A stretch of DNA of 64,000 nt, taken from the NCBI GenBank assembly GCA_964347045.1, contig CAYFXC010000003.1, forward strand, positions 102,701-166,700, given 5' to 3'. Under the pieces are notes generated by a model. The model saw only the letters and a program-made list of their open reading frames with translations, was not told the origin of the DNA and ran no database searches. Each line of letters opens with the position of its first letter. The stretch's first letter is position 1. This stretch comes from an uncultured archaeon (GTDB lineage Archaea > Asgardarchaeota > Hermodarchaeia > Hermodarchaeales > Hermodarchaeaceae). Shown here piece by piece: positions 5,085-9,234 of the stretch. The position numbers and the translations under genes are program-made.

Positions 5085-5870
5085 ATGTGTAAGTTTCATA
5101 TGCAAATCGAAGTATTAGGAAGCTCATCCTTCATTCCCACCCTAAAAGGCAGCTGGTCTAGCTTCTTTGTTAATCTTGGAAAGGGTGATCGAATCCTCAT
5201 TGATGCTGGCACCCGACGCCTTCTCGGTCTACGGAAAGACGTTCTTTCTATAAACCACATCTTCATTACCCATCGTCACCCAGACCATGTCATGTTTCTC
5301 GGTGCATTATTACGTCGCATGAAACGAAACAAACGTAAAAAACCACTAACGATATTCTGCCCTGTTAATGCGTTCTATCATGTAATCGGATACATCCGCT
5401 TCTATAATCCGAAAGGTGTTCCAGATTTTGTTAATTTCGAAACTTTTACGCCTGGGAAACCCGAATATCTCATTTCACTTTCCAAATCCAACACGGAAAT
5501 GTGGGCTGCCGCTGCTTGTCATACAACGATGGCAGCAGGATATGGCATTATTCAAGGAGACACCAAAGTAGTTATTGTACCTGATACTGCTCCAAATTGT
5601 AAACCACTTTTGGCGTTGGCAAAGGGTGCCCGTGCACTATTTCATGATACCACGTTTCCCACTGCTAAATACGGCTTCGCAGTAGCAAAAGGACATTCAA
5701 GTCCAGAAGGTGCTGGCTTGGATGCCGAAAAGGCTAGAGTGCAAACATTAGTGTTAATTCATACTAGTCGCGCGCGTTCTCGTGACGCACATACTCTCTT
5801 TGCAGGTGCTGCGAGATATTTTGGTGGCGAAATTCAAGTAGGTTCAGATACTTCGACATTTACATTTTAA
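5085..5870 (+). CDS. RNase Z-like MBL-fold hydrolase (likely start ATG 5100)
   Basis: LGS N-terminus, IDAG, THRHPDH, CHT, PDT, HDTTF, GHS, LIH motifs. Confidence 0.8.
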   Translation: MCKFHMQIEVLGSSSFIPTLKGSWSSFFVNLGKGDRILIDAGTRRLLGLRKDVLSINHIFITHRHPDHVMFLGALLRRMKRNKRKKPLTIFCPVNAFYHVIGYIRFYNPKGVPDFVNFETFTPGKPEYLISLSKSNTEMWAAAACHTTMAAGYGIIQGDTKVVIVPDTAPNCKPLLALAKGARALFHDTTFPTAKYGFAVAKGHSSPEGAGLDAEKARVQTLVLIHTSRARSRDAHTLFAGAARYFGGEIQVGSDTSTFTF

Positions 5871-6889
5871 TGTACAAAGCAAGAAATGGTTCCTTGATGA
5901 CCTCTTCTCATTCAAAAAGAAAAATCCCGACTGTTGCTTGTTTAGGCGAAGTAATCATTGATTTTATTGCCGAAGAAATTGGAACCCTAGACACAGTCAG
6001 TTCTTTTTCTAAGTATCCAGGAGGCGCTCCTGCCAACGTTGCTGTGGGAGTTGCAAGATTGGGTGTTGCTACTGGATTCATCGGAAAGGTAGGTTTTGAC
6101 GCTTTTGGAGACTATTTAATTTCTATACTTAAACAAAATGGAGTGGACATAAGGGGCATCACTCAAACCAAGGACGCACCGACAGCAGTAGCTTTTGTGA
6201 GTCGTTCTACATCCAAAGACCGTGATTTCCTTTTCTACCGTAATCCGTGTGCTGATCTTCTTTTGAAAAAATCTGAGCTCCCACGGGACTGGTTGACTCA
6301 AATTAAGTATTTGCATATCGGTGGTGTGAGTCTAACCCAAGAACCAAGTCGACAAGCAACCATGTATGCAACAAAAGTTGCTAAACAGAGTGGGGTGAAT
6401 GTTACTTTTGATCCCAATCTAAGAGTAGATCTTTGGTCAAATGGGCTTCCTGAATGTCGTAAAGTGATTCACTCAATCCTTGAAAATACCGATGTCTTTC
6501 TTCCCTCTTATGAAGAATTACTGACGCTCATGGCCACTGATAATTTAAACAAGGCATTACTCCGTGCACACGATATGGGGCCTTCTATAATTGTTGTAAA
6601 AATGGGATCCGATGGGAGTTTAGTCTCAGAGACAAGTCATAAAGGGGAATATCGACAATTTACTCAATCTGCTATTGATGTGAAGGTAGTAGATACAACG
6701 GGAGCAGGTGATGCCTATGATGCGGGTTTCATTGTAGGGCTTGTTCACGAATTATCAATTGAAGAGGCAGTTCTATGGGGGACTGCTGTAGCATCTCTTG
6801 TGATTACAAAAATTGGTGCAATGACAGCTCTTCCAACAAAAACCGAACTAGCCAATTTCCTAGATGGCTTTGAGAGAATTGGTTGCTAG
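5870..6889 (+). CDS. PfkB-family carbohydrate kinase (fructokinase-like)
   Basis: PGGAPANVAVG, GKVG.DAFG, FDPNLR, DTTGAGDAY. Confidence 0.95.
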   Translation: MYKARNGSLMTSSHSKRKIPTVACLGEVIIDFIAEEIGTLDTVSSFSKYPGGAPANVAVGVARLGVATGFIGKVGFDAFGDYLISILKQNGVDIRGITQTKDAPTAVAFVSRSTSKDRDFLFYRNPCADLLLKKSELPRDWLTQIKYLHIGGVSLTQEPSRQATMYATKVAKQSGVNVTFDPNLRVDLWSNGLPECRKVIHSILENTDVFLPSYEELLTLMATDNLNKALLRAHDMGPSIIVVKMGSDGSLVSETSHKGEYRQFTQSAIDVKVVDTTGAGDAYDAGFIVGLVHELSIEEAVLWGTAVASLVITKIGAMTALPTKTELANFLDGFERIGC

Positions 6890-7473
6890 GCAACACAATA
6901 TCGAAAAACGACATGACGACCGGCGGTTTCTGAATCACGAATTATCCGAATTACATCGCCAGGTCGGGCGCCAATTGCCTTTGCAGCAGGATCTCCTGCC
7001 TTGATTTTGGGTAATTGCATCCGGTCAATTCCATATTCTTTCTCAATCGCTTCAATTTCTTTTTGAGTAATAATATCGTGCTCTGGAACCAGATCATGTT
7101 GAAAAAGATCGATTGAAAGAAATCGGTGATGTAAAAGTTCAACATCCATTTCTTTGGCTTCACGTCGAGCGGCATAGGTGTATCGTTCTCCGCCAATGAT
7201 GATAGCGTGTGTAAACTCGCCAATATCTCGCGCTTTTATTGTATTTCGTAAAATTTCAACACCAACTGTGGGTGTATCGAGAATAACCCGAACCAATAGA
7301 TTGGCTTTCGATTTCTCGATTGTCTTTTTAGCATGGATATCAATAACCCCTTCTTTTTCTCCTTCAACTCGCTTTGTAATCTTATATCCTCGTCGCTCAA
7401 TAAGTCGCTTAAGGTAATTGAACTGCTTGTCTGTTAACACAAATCTCACCAAAGATTCCGGAGTTTTTCCCAC
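6886..7473 (-). CDS. rpoH: RNA polymerase subunit Rpo5/RpoH with an N-terminal RPB5-like jaw domain (start GTG 7473 or slightly downstream)
   Basis: C-terminal HDLVPEH...QLPKI..GDPAAKAIGARPGDVIRIIRDSETAG..V.FR; ~110-aa N-terminal domain with RRGY and PTVG; TTTATAAG box just upstream. Confidence 0.93.
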   Translation of the reverse strand: MGKTPESLVRFVLTDKQFNYLKRLIERRGYKITKRVEGEKEGVIDIHAKKTIEKSKANLLVRVILDTPTVGVEILRNTIKARDIGEFTHAIIIGGERYTYAARREAKEMDVELLHHRFLSIDLFQHDLVPEHDIITQKEIEAIEKEYGIDRMQLPKIKAGDPAAKAIGARPGDVIRIIRDSETAGRHVVFRYCVA

Positions 7474-7536
7474 GCTCGCTTCGCGACAGAGGATGAACAA
7501 CTTATAAACATTTGTATCCTCTGGGTTTCTCTTCTC

Positions 7537-8331
7537 CTAATGGACGGGTTTGAGTAAGGATTTCCGGTAATCATGAGGGTCAATCTGTGATGACAATATC
7601 TCGATTTCTCTCTCCGAAGGAGGCGCTGTTACTTCAAACTTATCAGGAATTTTAAACAAAAAACCAGTTTGTTCTTGCACTTGTCTCAGCCCTATACCTG
7701 GATGAATTGATTTTAGAAATATTCTTCTGTCACTCCTATTAAATTGAAAAACGCATAAATTTGTAACAATAACATCTGGCCCTCCGTGTCGGTGTCCCTT
7801 TGCTGCAGAAATCCATCCAGGGCTTGTTATAAATGGGACCTGCTTTACTAGGCTACGCTGGCTATGATTCGTTCGCCATGAAACAATCCGTCGAAAGCTT
7901 CGAATCATAAGTGGGCCACCCGCTCCTCCAGGCAAACGAACTTTTGGTTGTGTCGGGTCTTTGCCAATTATGCTCATGTTCAAATTCCCAAACTGATCAA
8001 TCTGAACACCACTAAGAAAAGCCACATCCATTCGACCGTTGTTCGCTAAATCAAATATCTCAGGGAAAGTAATTGCGTTCTCACAATCATCAAAGAGATG
8101 TGGATCACCAGTGGAAAAGGGTAGAGTATGAGGCTTTGGATTAATAGTTCCAAGAATTGTGAAATACAACAGGTTAGGTGCATGTGTTGCTTTAGCAAGC
8201 AGTGTTGCGAGCATTTGCACTGGGCTTGCCACTCCTGTAAAAACTCGGTCTCCATCTTTTAATTGACGGGCCAATGTTGACAAAATCAGTTCATCAAAGC
8301 TATAATCCCTAGATAATTTTGTCATTTGCAT
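7537..8331 (-). CDS. Family I CoA-transferase-fold beta subunit (GctB/AibB-like) lacking the catalytic Glu
   Basis: LARQ..DG..VFTGVASP, ATHAPNL, QIDQFGNLN, RLPGGAGG, EQTGF. Confidence 0.85.
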   Translation of the reverse strand: MQMTKLSRDYSFDELILSTLARQLKDGDRVFTGVASPVQMLATLLAKATHAPNLLYFTILGTINPKPHTLPFSTGDPHLFDDCENAITFPEIFDLANNGRMDVAFLSGVQIDQFGNLNMSIIGKDPTQPKVRLPGGAGGPLMIRSFRRIVSWRTNHSQRSLVKQVPFITSPGWISAAKGHRHGGPDVIVTNLCVFQFNRSDRRIFLKSIHPGIGLRQVQEQTGFLFKIPDKFEVTAPPSEREIEILSSQIDPHDYRKSLLKPVH

Positions 8332-8334
8332 CCC

Positions 8335-9234
8335 CTAATTCACTGAATTAGCTTGAGGCGTTCTCCAACTAGGAGGTAGCCCCACTTTTTCCAAAAAGGT
8401 TTGATGATCAGAACAGGCATGGATATATTCTTGCAGATACTCATCGAAGCCTTTCTGAGTTTGAGCTTTTTCTTGGTAAAATGAAATATGTGCGGTATCT
8501 GTTTCGTATTTTTTATTGAGTGCGGTGGGTGTAGCACCGTACGGAACTATCGATATTGCATCAACAAGAAAATGAGGAATTGCGATTTGACTCGGTTCAA
8601 ATATTTCCGACTCTATGCCCTCTTCGACTGTGACTAATACTTTATTACATGCTTGGGCTGTGGTTAACGTGAAATTTGTCCATGGTTCAAGCAGGCGCAC
8701 ATTTCCTTTCGAGTCCGCTGAGTGAGCATGGAGCAATAAAACATCGGGACGTAAAGCTGGAACTATGATGATCGTTTCTTTTGGGTCATAGGGGGACTGC
8801 ATCAAAAGATAATCTTTACGAATGGAGAGTAAATCAGATCCCCGAAAATCTGGTAGTGGGATGAATGGAATACCAAATGCTCCTGCGCGTAGAGCCATGC
8901 AGATGGCATAACCCATACTTTCCTTTACACGAATCAATCTATTTTCGACAGCTTCTCGGAAACGGCGCATTGTTGCAAAACCATTTTGGGTCATAAAACC
9001 CAGAAAATAGAATTCGAGTTCTGAAACAGTACCAGCTCCAACGAGCTGATCTATGGCTAAACCATTAGGTGCACTAACAATTCGGAGATCTCGGAGCTCA
9101 GCGCGGATAATCTCATGAACTGCAGCCATAGGTAAGCGGTTGATCAGTAATCCTTCCAAATAGATATGGCTCTTATGAGAGATGTTCTGACGTACTAGCT
9201 GGTGTAGCGACGTGAACTTATGGGATTTAGACAT
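8335..9234 (-). CDS. Family I CoA-transferase-fold alpha subunit (GctA/AibA-like)
   Basis: R.PMAAVHEIIR, DQLVGAG, LRAGAFGIPF, GSDL, PALRPDV.LLHA..AD..GN, VTVEE, PYGA.P. Confidence 0.88.
   Translation of the reverse strand: MSKSHKFTSLHQLVRQNISHKSHIYLEGLLINRLPMAAVHEIIRAELRDLRIVSAPNGLAIDQLVGAGTVSELEFYFLGFMTQNGFATMRRFREAVENRLIRVKESMGYAICMALRAGAFGIPFIPLPDFRGSDLLSIRKDYLLMQSPYDPKETIIIVPALRPDVLLLHAHSADSKGNVRLLEPWTNFTLTTAQACNKVLVTVEEGIESEIFEPSQIAIPHFLVDAISIVPYGATPTALNKKYETDTAHISFYQEKAQTQKGFDEYLQEYIHACSDHQTFLEKVGLPPSWRTPQANSVN

What the first reader, a model, noticed from the sequence alone, without database searches (positions are those of the whole stretch)
6886..7473. Eukaryote-length, two-domain RPB5/Rpo5
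Established: typical archaeal Rpo5 is only the ~80-aa C-terminal assembly domain, while eukaryotic RPB5 adds an N-terminal jaw domain that contacts downstream DNA. Seen: this ~190-aa subunit has a ~110-aa N-terminal domain with IERRGYKI, DTPTVGVEIL, FTHAIII and YTYAARR. These match, in order, the motifs I recall from eukaryotic RPB5 (DRGY, PKVG, ITRALIV, TPSAK) and run directly into HDLVPEH. The gene is also outside the usual rpoH-rpoB-rpoA operon. Inference: an archaeal precursor of the RPB5 jaw domain (restriction-endonuclease/Mrr-like fold), possibly a second paralog.
Basis: partly seen in the sequence, partly recalled or inferred. Interest (0 to 1): 0.72.

Follow-up and report, generated by a model that had tools for sequence, protein, structure and literature searches.

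The report
Archaeal RNA polymerase subunit with eukaryote-type jaw
This Asgard archaeon's only copy of RNA polymerase subunit Rpo5 carries the extra N-terminal "jaw" domain that textbooks call eukaryote-only, and the same two-domain form occurs in about half of the sampled Asgard genomes and in Bathyarchaeia, so the eukaryotic RPB5 architecture probably predates eukaryotes.

Summary
A minus-strand gene (stop 6886-6888; start most likely GTG 7440 or 7449, not 7473) encodes a 184-187 aa protein. Its C-terminal domain is Rpb5_C (Pfam E 1e-26). Its ~107 aa N-terminal domain has a PD-(D/E)XK fold and hits Mrr_cat above the Pfam cut-off.

It is the only Rpo5 in this 89%-complete Hermodarchaeia genome, so it is not a second paralog. 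The usual rpoH slot upstream of rpoB is empty.

A profile of the N-domain alone hits only eukaryotic RPB5 among PDB sequences (E 3e-8). The full AlphaFold model superposes on RPB5 inside Pol II (TM 0.84, both domains). The lethal-when-mutated Arg of the eukaryotic DRGY motif is invariant, and the nuclease (E/Q)xK motif is lost, as in eukaryotes.

By sequence the domain lies between Mrr nucleases and the RPB5 jaw. It is closer to Mrr (hhalign E 2e-14 versus 1e-6).

The two-domain form is widespread: 185 of 400 Asgard genomes (19 of 33 families, including Heimdallarchaeia/Hodarchaeales-labelled ones) and 48 of 401 sampled Thermoproteota (the named ones are Bathyarchaeia). Long forms never sit next to rpoB; short forms always do.

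Papers from 2006-2018 state that archaea lack this domain, and I found no report of it. The scan flagged this same stretch before, in other windows.

Verdict: a real, nuclease-dead, eukaryote-type RPB5 in archaea. Its role in the polymerase is inferred, not shown.

The parts
6886..7449 (-). rpo5 (rpoH) coding sequence, two-domain form. The 187-aa product starts at GTG 7449 (P0002). An alternative GTG at 7440 gives 184 aa and GTG 7473 gives 195 aa. Stop codon at 6886-6888.
   Evidence: ORF list and translation. Homologues of 177-195 aa all carry Rpb5_C plus Mrr_cat. N-termini align at MLTDKQ / MRFVLTD.
7117..7437 (-). N-terminal jaw-like domain (~107 aa). PD-(D/E)XK (Mrr-like) fold with alpha-beta-beta-beta-alpha-beta-alpha-beta topology. 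Nuclease-dead: (E/Q)xK is replaced by R-V-I. It carries the invariant Arg of the RGY motif, the VGV motif and a T-Y-A-A motif (equivalent to eukaryotic TPSA).
   Evidence: Pfam Mrr_cat E 2.4e-8. Profile A2 hits only RPB5 in PDB sequences. AF2 model pLDDT 93.8. Foldseek and VIA matches. Motif alignment with Mrr nucleases and a eukaryotic RPB5. pN/pS 0.09-0.19.
6895..7110 (-). C-terminal assembly domain (Rpb5_C), expected to bind the largest subunit. It keeps H, P, D, R, R at the spacing of yeast H147, P151, D182, R200, R212.
   Evidence: Pfam PF01191 E 1.1e-26, residues 131-202 of P0001. Invariant columns H135, P139, D170, R188, R200. Yeast residues from PMC1802627. Matches archaeal Rpo5 chains at TM 0.87-0.93 of the target.
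7502..7508 (-). Candidate archaeal TATA box (TTTATAA). It lies 29 nt after the stop of the upstream CoA-transferase gene and about 25 nt upstream of GTG 7473.
   Evidence: Read directly from the sequence. Inference only: the promoter scanner is sigma-70 type and does not cover archaea.
7446..7450 (-). GGTGA Shine-Dalgarno-like motif 5 nt upstream of GTG 7440.
   Evidence: Read directly from the sequence. Inference only.

Best explanation
The gene encodes the sole Rpo5 (RpoH) subunit of the RNA polymerase of a Hermodarchaeia (Asgard) archaeon, in a two-domain form built like eukaryotic RPB5.

Shown here:
- The C-terminal 73 residues are a canonical Rpb5_C assembly domain. It has all five residues that contact Rpb1 in yeast, at identical spacing.
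- The N-terminal ~107 residues are a PD-(D/E)XK (Mrr-type) nuclease fold that has lost the catalytic (E/Q)xK.
- This N-domain is specifically related in sequence, fold and position to the eukaryotic RPB5 jaw domain.

Inferred:
- The C-domain docks on Rpo1' and Rpo1'' as in every archaeal and eukaryotic polymerase.
[quoted passage not shown] In Sulfolobales that position is filled by Rpo13. In euryarchaea it is left empty.
- It acts as a structural, DNA- or factor-contacting module, not as a nuclease.
- Evolutionarily, an inactivated Mrr-like domain was fused to Rpo5 in an archaeal lineage, at a locus away from rpoB. Eukaryotes inherited the fused gene and later added a helical insertion after helix alpha1.
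For: Subunit identity:
- Rpb5_C E 1e-26 and Mrr_cat E 2.4e-8, both above the Pfam cut-offs.
- One Rpb5_C match and one N-domain match in the genome.
- Invariant H135, P139, D170, R188, R200 have the same spacing as yeast H147, P151, D182, R200, R212 (PMC1802627).

Link to the eukaryotic jaw:
- With the whole protein, phmmer's best PDB hits are eukaryotic RPB5, and the alignments run into the N-domain.
- The N-domain-only profile gives RPB5 of human (2.8e-8), Arabidopsis (1.6e-7), S. pombe (6e-4) and yeast (9e-4). No other PDB sequence scores below E 0.1.
- The full AF2 model (pLDDT 89, pTM 0.79) superposes on RPB5 in Pol I/II/III complexes at query-normalised TM 0.76-0.84 over both domains. 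An Mrr-like protein gives 0.43.
- hhalign to a eukaryotic RPB5 gives probability 90.6% and aligns RGY with DRGY and TxAA with TPSA.
- The Arg of RGY is one of only two invariant N-domain residues. R26E in yeast DRGY is lethal.

Nuclease-dead:
- Mrr Q-C-K is replaced by x-x-(I/P/V) in all archaeal forms. The same position reads F-F-P in the eukaryotic sequence and C-I-P / R-I-P in archaea.

Selection and distribution:
- Purifying selection is equal on both domains.
- The long form is in 185 of 400 Asgard genomes and 48 of 401 Thermoproteota genomes, as a single copy per genome apart from duplicates in some Asgard and a few Thermoproteota genomes. It is the sole Rpo5 in a complete Bathyarchaeota chromosome.
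- In the tree, Rpo5-N plus eukaryotic RPB5-N split from Mrr nucleases with SH-like support 1.0.
Against: - The Pfam RNA_pol_Rpb5_N model does not match the window protein, and matches only 2 of 21 homologues at E ~0.003. That model ends at about residue 94 of RPB5 and so omits the best-conserved block.
- By sequence the domain is closer to true Mrr nucleases (hhalign E 1.6e-14) than to eukaryotic RPB5 (E 1.3e-6).
- In the 1.8-billion-protein library, Mrr enzymes and a eukaryotic RPB5 score alike (E 1e-11 to 1e-9).
- Only one eukaryotic sequence, aligned over 60 columns, was available for the tree, so its placement inside Asgard (SH 0.90-0.98) is weak.
- There is no experimental evidence that the protein is in the polymerase or touches DNA.
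- In yeast the proposed proline-DNA contacts of the jaw are dispensable.
Confidence: 0.78

Rival explanations
1. Convergent architecture. Archaea and eukaryotes each fused a different Mrr-like PD-(D/E)XK domain to the N-terminus of Rpo5/RPB5, so the archaeal domain is an analogue of the jaw, not its ancestor.
Against: - The domain order is the same and the predicted inter-domain geometry is the same (TM 0.84 over the full length).
- Derived states absent from Mrr are shared: loss of QxK with Pro at the former Lys position, and the invariant Arg of RGY.
- PDB sequence hits are to RPB5 only.
- The eukaryotic sequence nests within the archaeal Rpo5-N clade, and the split from Mrr has support 1.0.
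- The long form is present in Heimdallarchaeia/Hodarchaeales-labelled genomes.
Confidence: 0.1
2. The N-domain has a lineage-specific job unrelated to the polymerase jaw. Examples would be a DNA-sensing, defence-related or regulatory module tethered to the polymerase, or a residual nuclease in lineages that keep the first Asp.
For: Hermodarchaeia and some other families keep the first catalytic Asp (I-D-I). Related N-domains occur fused to Zn-ribbon C-termini without Rpb5_C (P0130, P0136, P0148). They also occur in threefold repeats before Rpb5_C (P0102). The domain is therefore used in more than one context.
Against: The (E/Q)xK Lys is missing in every sequence examined. The domain is in the sole, essential Rpo5 gene and evolves as slowly as the C-domain. 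The inter-domain packing is predicted with confidence and matches RPB5.
Confidence: 0.08
3. Eukaryote-to-archaea transfer: the long gene is a eukaryotic RPB5 that was acquired horizontally and replaced the native short rpoH.
For: The long gene is never in the rpoH slot next to rpoB, whereas all 8 short-form Asgard loci examined are. Its distribution within Asgard is patchy: 19 of 33 families.
Against: - The archaeal N-domain lacks the eukaryotic insertions.
- It is more Mrr-like than any eukaryotic jaw, as expected of an ancestral form rather than a derived one.
- The C-domain is 45-51% identical to archaeal Rpo5 structures, versus ~25% overall identity to RPB5.
- It is widespread and deeply diverged across Asgard and Bathyarchaeia.
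Confidence: 0.03
4. Annotation artefact: only the C-terminal ~88 aa (from the internal Met in E-M-D-V-E-L-L) is translated, and the upstream part is not part of the subunit.
For: An in-frame ATG lies just before the C-domain, and its product would have the size of a normal RpoH.
Against: That Met is not conserved even within Hermodarchaeia (L or K in P0025 and P0035). The frame stays open and collinear in more than 230 genomes. pN/pS of the N-part is 0.09-0.19.
Confidence: 0.01

Closest known systems
Eukaryotic RPB5 (RPABC1/ABC27), e.g. yeast 1dzf, human 5iy6_E, Arabidopsis NRPB5 7eu0_E
   Same: - Two domains in the same order: a PD-(D/E)XK-fold jaw followed by the Rpb5_C assembly domain.
- Full-length TM 0.76-0.84.
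- The RGY Arg, the VGI/VGV motif and the T-x-(S/A)-A motif are shared, as is the loss of the catalytic Lys.
- The five Rpb1-contact residues are conserved at identical spacing.
- It is the single polymerase subunit gene of its kind.
   Different: - About 25-30 residues shorter. It lacks the eukaryotic insertions between helix alpha1 and the beta-sheet and has a shorter hinge.
- Below the Pfam Rpb5_N threshold.
- Overall identity is only ~25%.
- It serves one polymerase rather than three.
Canonical archaeal Rpo5/RpoH (about 75-85 aa; e.g. 2waq_H, 4qiw_H, 8cro_H)
   Same: The C-terminal domain is 45-51% identical and superposes at 1.2-1.6 A. It has the same Pfam family and the same conserved contact residues.
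   Different: The canonical form has no N-terminal domain and is encoded immediately upstream of rpoB: 8 of 8 short-form Asgard loci. The long form is never next to rpoB in about 100 loci.
Mrr-type PD-(D/E)XK restriction endonuclease domain (Pfam Mrr_cat PF04471; AF1548 1y88; NucS/EndoMS 2vld)
   Different: The catalytic (E/Q)-x-K is replaced by R-V-I (other forms have W-C-I, R-I-P and the like), so nuclease activity is not expected. It is fused to a polymerase subunit instead of a winged-helix or other DNA-recognition domain.
Rpo13 of Sulfolobales (PMC3479171)
   Same: By inference it occupies the same place on the polymerase: the void between Rpo5 and the clamp head at the downstream DNA entry.
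   Different: Rpo13 is an unrelated small helical, partly disordered protein encoded by a separate gene. No homology.

Membership tests
Rpo5/RPB5 polymerase subunit (Pfam RNA_pol_Rpb5_C, PF01191) | Match to the Rpb5_C model above the curated cut-off | tested here: met
   92.8 bits against a cut-off of 23.5, E 1.1e-26, model positions 2-73 of 73.
Rpo5/RPB5 polymerase subunit (Pfam RNA_pol_Rpb5_C, PF01191) | Residues that bind the largest subunit (yeast H147, P151, D182, R200, R212) | tested here: met
   H135, P139, D170, R188, R200 are invariant in 21 homologues, with spacing +4, +31, +18, +12 identical to yeast (PMC1802627).
Rpo5/RPB5 polymerase subunit (Pfam RNA_pol_Rpb5_C, PF01191) | Physical presence in the RNA polymerase | not testable with these tools
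   It is the only Rpb5_C gene in the genome, so it must serve if the enzyme has an Rpo5. No biochemical data.
Eukaryote-type RPB5 jaw domain (Pfam RNA_pol_Rpb5_N, PF03871) | Match to the Pfam Rpb5_N model above its cut-off (27 bits) | tested here: not met
   No hit for the window protein. Only 2 of 21 homologues hit, at best E 0.0028. The model covers only RPB5 residues ~4-94.
Eukaryote-type RPB5 jaw domain (Pfam RNA_pol_Rpb5_N, PF03871) | Significant sequence relationship of the N-domain alone to RPB5 N-domains | tested here: met
   Profile A2 against PDB sequences: human 2.8e-8, Arabidopsis 1.6e-7 over profile positions 7-94, and nothing else below E 0.1. hhalign probability 90.6%.
Eukaryote-type RPB5 jaw domain (Pfam RNA_pol_Rpb5_N, PF03871) | Fold and inter-domain arrangement superpose on RPB5 | tested here: met
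Eukaryote-type RPB5 jaw domain (Pfam RNA_pol_Rpb5_N, PF03871) | Invariant DRGY motif in helix alpha1 and the TPSA DNA-contact motif | tested here: met
   R-R-G-Y with an invariant Arg. T-Y-A-A in the window and T-P-A-A in many homologues, aligned to T-P-S-A. Motif roles are from PMC1802627 and PMC6690254.
Eukaryote-type RPB5 jaw domain (Pfam RNA_pol_Rpb5_N, PF03871) | Eukaryotic helical insertion between alpha1 and the sheet (domain length ~140 aa) | tested here: not met
   The archaeal domain is ~107 aa. hhalign needs insertions of 6 and 12 residues in the eukaryotic sequence.
Mrr-type restriction endonuclease (Pfam Mrr_cat, PF04471) | Match to the Mrr_cat model above the cut-off | tested here: met
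   34.5 bits against a cut-off of 21. 21 of 21 homologues hit.
Mrr-type restriction endonuclease (Pfam Mrr_cat, PF04471) | Catalytic D ... (E/Q)-x-K triad | tested here: not met
   The Asp is kept (I-D-I), but Q-C-K of true Mrr enzymes aligns with R-V-I. No examined Rpo5 N-domain has the Lys.
NACHT-associated inactive REase 1 (Pfam NA-iREase1, PF22722) | Match above the cut-off (27 bits) | tested here: not met
   22 bits for the window protein. Some homologues exceed the cut-off. This is a related inactive-nuclease model, not a functional assignment.

The most novel reading that the evidence does not exclude
[quoted passage not shown] On this reading it was not invented by eukaryotes. It arose in archaea when a dead Mrr-type nuclease domain was fused to Rpo5 at a locus outside the rpoH-rpoB operon. 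It was present in the Asgard ancestor of eukaryotes and was inherited vertically. The archaeal proteins are surviving intermediates that link a restriction-enzyme domain to a core polymerase module.
Probability: 0.6. Interest if true: 0.78.

Novelty: new variant of a known kind. Interest (0 to 1): 0.68.

Why it matters
Reviews and structural papers state that the RPB5 N-terminal module is eukaryote-only:
- 'only found in eukaryotes' (PMC1802627).
- Listed as 'Eukaryota' in the PD-(D/E)XK survey (PMC3424549).

Finding it as the sole Rpo5 in about half of the sampled Asgard genomes and in Bathyarchaeia has several consequences:
- It moves another piece of the eukaryotic transcription machine back into archaea. 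It would be an informational eukaryotic signature protein that Eme et al. 2023 does not list.
- It gives a sequence intermediate that explains where the jaw came from: an inactivated Mrr nuclease.
- It predicts that these archaeal polymerases handle downstream DNA more like Pol II than the Sulfolobus or Thermococcus enzymes do.
- It makes the function of the jaw testable in a simpler, single-polymerase system.
- It raises the question of why the long gene always lies outside the rpoB operon.

Tried and rejected
- **Pfam Rpb5_N** as the test of homology gave no hit. I did not take this as evidence against homology, because the model stops before the conserved beta4-alpha3 block.
- **Second paralog:** rejected. 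There is one Rpb5_C and one N-domain match in the genome, and the slot upstream of rpoB is empty.
- **Conserved neighbours** that might hint at function: synteny (CoA-transferase genes upstream, sugar kinase convergent downstream) holds only within Hermodarchaeia. Nothing is shared across lineages.
- **ARAGORN** found no tRNA upstream of rpoB. Rfam found two intron-containing tRNAs there.
FastTree was used instead, so supports are SH-like only.
- **Taxon names for the anonymous genome handles:** only partly recovered, through named NCBI proteins. My guess that the handles follow the alphabetical order of GTDB classes was not used.
- **Profile search for more names** was flooded by Bathyarchaeia.
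- **Rpb8 (PF03870) in the genome:** uninformative, because the control genomes did not ring either.
- **Literature:** 9 searches found no paper describing a long archaeal Rpo5. The 2026 paper on archaeal small-subunit evolution (PMC13257274) discusses Rpo6 and Rpo8 but not this. The library holds open-access papers only, so a report elsewhere cannot be excluded.
Full report
**1. What is there**

On the minus strand an open frame runs from 7500 to the stop at 6886-6888. The called gene (P0002, 187 aa) starts at GTG 7449.

Most orthologues start at M-L-T-D-K-Q (184 aa). That corresponds to GTG 7440, which is preceded at 5 nt by GGTGA (7446-7450). A TTTATAA box at 7502-7508 lies 29 nt after the stop of the upstream gene. 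These signals are read from the sequence and are inference only.

Pfam gives Rpb5_C (residues 131-202 of the 204-aa frame, E 1.1e-26). It also gives Mrr_cat (29-125, E 2.4e-8, 34.5 bits against a cut-off of 21). RNA_pol_Rpb5_N gives no hit.

**2. Organism and copy number**

The closest loci are MAGs named Hermodarchaeota or Hermodarchaeia, at 79-87% identity. The genome is 2.58 Mb and 88.9% complete. It holds one Rpb5_C match and one N-domain match.

rpoB, rpoA', rpoA'', L30e, NusA, S12 and S7 lie on contig C1. Upstream of rpoB there are two intron-containing tRNA genes and no rpoH-like frame. This is therefore the only Rpo5, not a second paralog, and it is indeed outside the rpo operon.

**3. 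Is the N-domain the RPB5 jaw?**

- *Whole protein.* phmmer's best PDB hits are eukaryotic RPB5 (E 3e-20). The alignments run from D-T-P-T-V-G (aligned to E-E-P-K-V-G) through the hinge into the C-domain. For Arabidopsis and S. pombe they start at residues 49-53.
- *N-domain profile against PDB.* I built a profile of N-domains only (A2: 35 sequences from Hermodarchaeia, 17 other Asgard families and Bathyarchaeia). Against all PDB sequences it hits only RPB5: human 2.8e-8, Arabidopsis 1.6e-7 (profile positions 7-94), S. pombe 6e-4 and yeast 9e-4. The next hit has E 0.17.
- *N-domain profile against 1.84 billion representatives.* It finds about 55 two-domain Rpo5 clusters first. After those come a eukaryotic RPB5 (P0153, Pfam Rpb5_N 1e-39) at E 2.9e-10 and genuine Mrr nucleases (P0143, P0157; Mrr_cat about 1e-30 to 1e-33) at 1e-11 to 7e-10.
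- *hhalign.* It gives 90.6% probability (E 1.3e-6) to the eukaryotic RPB5. R-G-Y aligns with D-R-G-Y and T-x-A-A with T-P-S-A, and the eukaryotic sequence carries two insertions. To an Mrr nuclease it gives 98.3% (E 1.6e-14).
- *Why Pfam Rpb5_N misses it.* That model covers only RPB5 residues ~4-94 and leaves out the best-conserved block.

**4. Structure**

The full-length AF2 model (pLDDT 89.3, pTM 0.79) matches RPB5 chains from Pol I, II and III at query-normalised TM 0.76-0.84 and rmsd 2.2-3.5 A over about 200 columns. Both domains and their mutual orientation agree. Short archaeal Rpo5 chains match only the C-domain. The Mrr-like AF1548 reaches TM 0.43.

**5. Active site and shared derived states**

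Aligned to true Mrr enzymes (G-G-I-D-I ... V-I-Q-C-K-D-W), the window protein keeps the Asp (G-V-I-D-I) but has L-V-R-V-I-L in place of Q-C-K. Other archaeal forms have W-C-I-P, V-R-I-P or W-I-F-K. The eukaryotic sequence has V-F-F-P-E-E, and Bathyarchaeia read W-C-I-P-E-E. The catalytic Lys is absent everywhere, so no nuclease activity is expected.

The only invariant N-domain residues are the Arg of R-G-Y and the Gly of V-G-V. In yeast the corresponding R26E change in the 'invariant DRGY motif' is lethal (PMC1802627).

In the C-domain, H135, P139, D170, R188 and R200 are invariant. Their spacing equals that of yeast H147, P151, D182, R200 and R212, the residues that contact Rpb1.

**6. Selection**

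Against seven Hermodarchaeial orthologues, pN/pS is 0.09-0.19 for the N-domain and 0.07-0.21 for the C-domain, with synonymous sites near saturation. The N-domain has net charge +6 and the C-domain -2. The internal Met before the C-domain is not conserved.

**7. Distribution**

- *Asgard.* Of 400 genomes of the phylum, 371 have Rpb5_C and 185 have the N-domain at E <= 1e-17, always in an open frame of about 180-260 aa.
- *Families with the long form (19 of 33):* f1, f2, f6, f7, f10-f17, f26 and f28-f33.
- *Families without it:* f3-f5, f8, f9, f18-f25 and f27, including the largest family (0 of 135).
- *Names recovered through NCBI proteins:* Hermodarchaeia (own family), Heimdallarchaeota / Hodarchaeales / Kariarchaeaceae labels (82-86% identity to f10), Helarchaeota (100% identity to f16) and Jordarchaeaceae (83% identity to f14).
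- *Bathyarchaeia.* The same two-domain protein (~43% identity) occurs in 65 named genomes. It is the sole Rpo5 in a complete chromosome.
- *Thermoproteota.* 48 of 401 sampled genomes have it.
- *Automatic annotation.* One Bathyarchaeial copy was named RPABC1 by JGI.

**8. Linkage**

In 8 of 8 short-form Asgard loci, rpoB starts within about 200 nt downstream of rpo5. In about 100 long-form loci with 4-6 kb flanks, no rpoB is present. Neighbours of the long gene are conserved only within Hermodarchaeia. The long form is therefore not a simple in-place extension of rpoH.

**9. Tree**

The alignment had 108 columns and 50 sequences, analysed with FastTree LG+gamma. The ten Mrr nucleases split from all Rpo5 N-domains with SH-like support 1.0. 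The single eukaryotic sequence (60 aligned columns) falls inside a clade of Asgard families that includes the Heimdallarchaeia-labelled one (supports 0.90-0.98). Bathyarchaeia group with Asgard family f26. This is suggestive only.

**10. How it most likely works**

Shown: the homology, the fold, the dead active site, the conserved contact residues, the single-copy status and the purifying selection.

Inferred: the C-domain anchors the subunit on Rpo1' and Rpo1''. The N-domain forms the lower jaw at the downstream DNA entry. In Pol II the jaw cross-links to DNA 15-20 bp ahead of the bubble and contacts it through the TPSA loop (PMC1802627, PMC6690254). In Sulfolobus this place is taken by Rpo13 (PMC3479171).

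**11. Comparison with what is known, and novelty**

Papers of 2006, 2012 and 2018 state that the module is absent from archaea. A 2018 review calls Rpo8 the only archaeo-eukaryotic polymerase acquisition that is not universal in archaea. Eme et al. 2023 list informational ESPs of Hodarchaeales without it. A 2026 paper on archaeal small-subunit evolution does not mention it. I found no report in nine searches of an open-access library.

I classify it as a new variant of a known kind: a member of the Rpo5/RPB5 family by every testable criterion, with a jaw domain that is homologous to RPB5-N but falls below the Pfam Rpb5_N threshold, and that is an inactive relative of Mrr_cat.

The scan had flagged this same stretch in other windows.

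Noticed in passing
L100:2554-3839 and L101:3632-4882 (Asgard family f31, genera g77-g79 and g83): Two full-length two-domain rpo5 genes sit in tandem, head to tail, in many genomes of one large Asgard family. Both copies have N- and C-domains and are about 60% alike (by eye). The polymerase there may have two alternative Rpo5 subunits.
   Followed up: partly
P0102 (481 aa) and P0105 (349 aa, cut), from the representative library: A protein with three consecutive jaw-like N-domains, separated by lysine-rich linkers, followed by one Rpb5_C domain and a lysine-rich tail. P0124, P0133, P0137 and P0172 have two or three N-domain repeats. The source lineage is unknown.
   Followed up: no
P0130, P0136, P0148 (196-251 aa): Proteins with an Rpo5-type N-domain (R-G-Y / R-D-Y, I-D-F, no catalytic Lys) fused to a Cys-rich zinc-ribbon C-terminus instead of Rpb5_C. 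In the small tree they group next to the Hermodarchaeial N-domains. None is present in this genome.
   Followed up: partly
Asgard loci L103-L110 versus L002-L101: The gene's position tracks its form exactly. Short rpo5 is always immediately upstream of rpoB (8 of 8 loci). Long rpo5 is never within 4-6 kb of rpoB (about 100 loci).
   Followed up: yes
own genome, contig C1:241311-244673 (outside the window): rpoB is read as two frames of 949 and 170 aa, separated by stops at about 244158-244163 (one search reports 1 TGA and 1 TAA inside the match). Short-form Asgard relatives have a single frame of ~1120 aa. This could be an unusual split, a sequencing error or recoding.
   Followed up: no
own genome, C1:240691-240819 and C1:240874-240978 (L111:1292-1420, 1475-1579): Two tRNA genes of 129 and 105 nt (intron-containing) occupy the place upstream of rpoB where rpoH usually lies. 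ARAGORN missed both and Rfam found them.
   Followed up: partly
window 7537-9234 (-) and 5870-6889 (+): Within Hermodarchaeia, rpo5 always follows two CoA-transferase-family subunit genes on the same strand and converges on a PfkB-type sugar kinase whose stop overlaps the rpo5 stop by 4 nt. This synteny holds in 13-16 of the 16 Hermodarchaeial loci examined, including the window's own.
   Followed up: partly
P0153: The only eukaryotic RPB5 among the top 150 library hits is a faulty gene model. It has an internal duplication of residues ~77-140 and a truncated C-domain, so only its N-terminal part was usable.
   Followed up: yes
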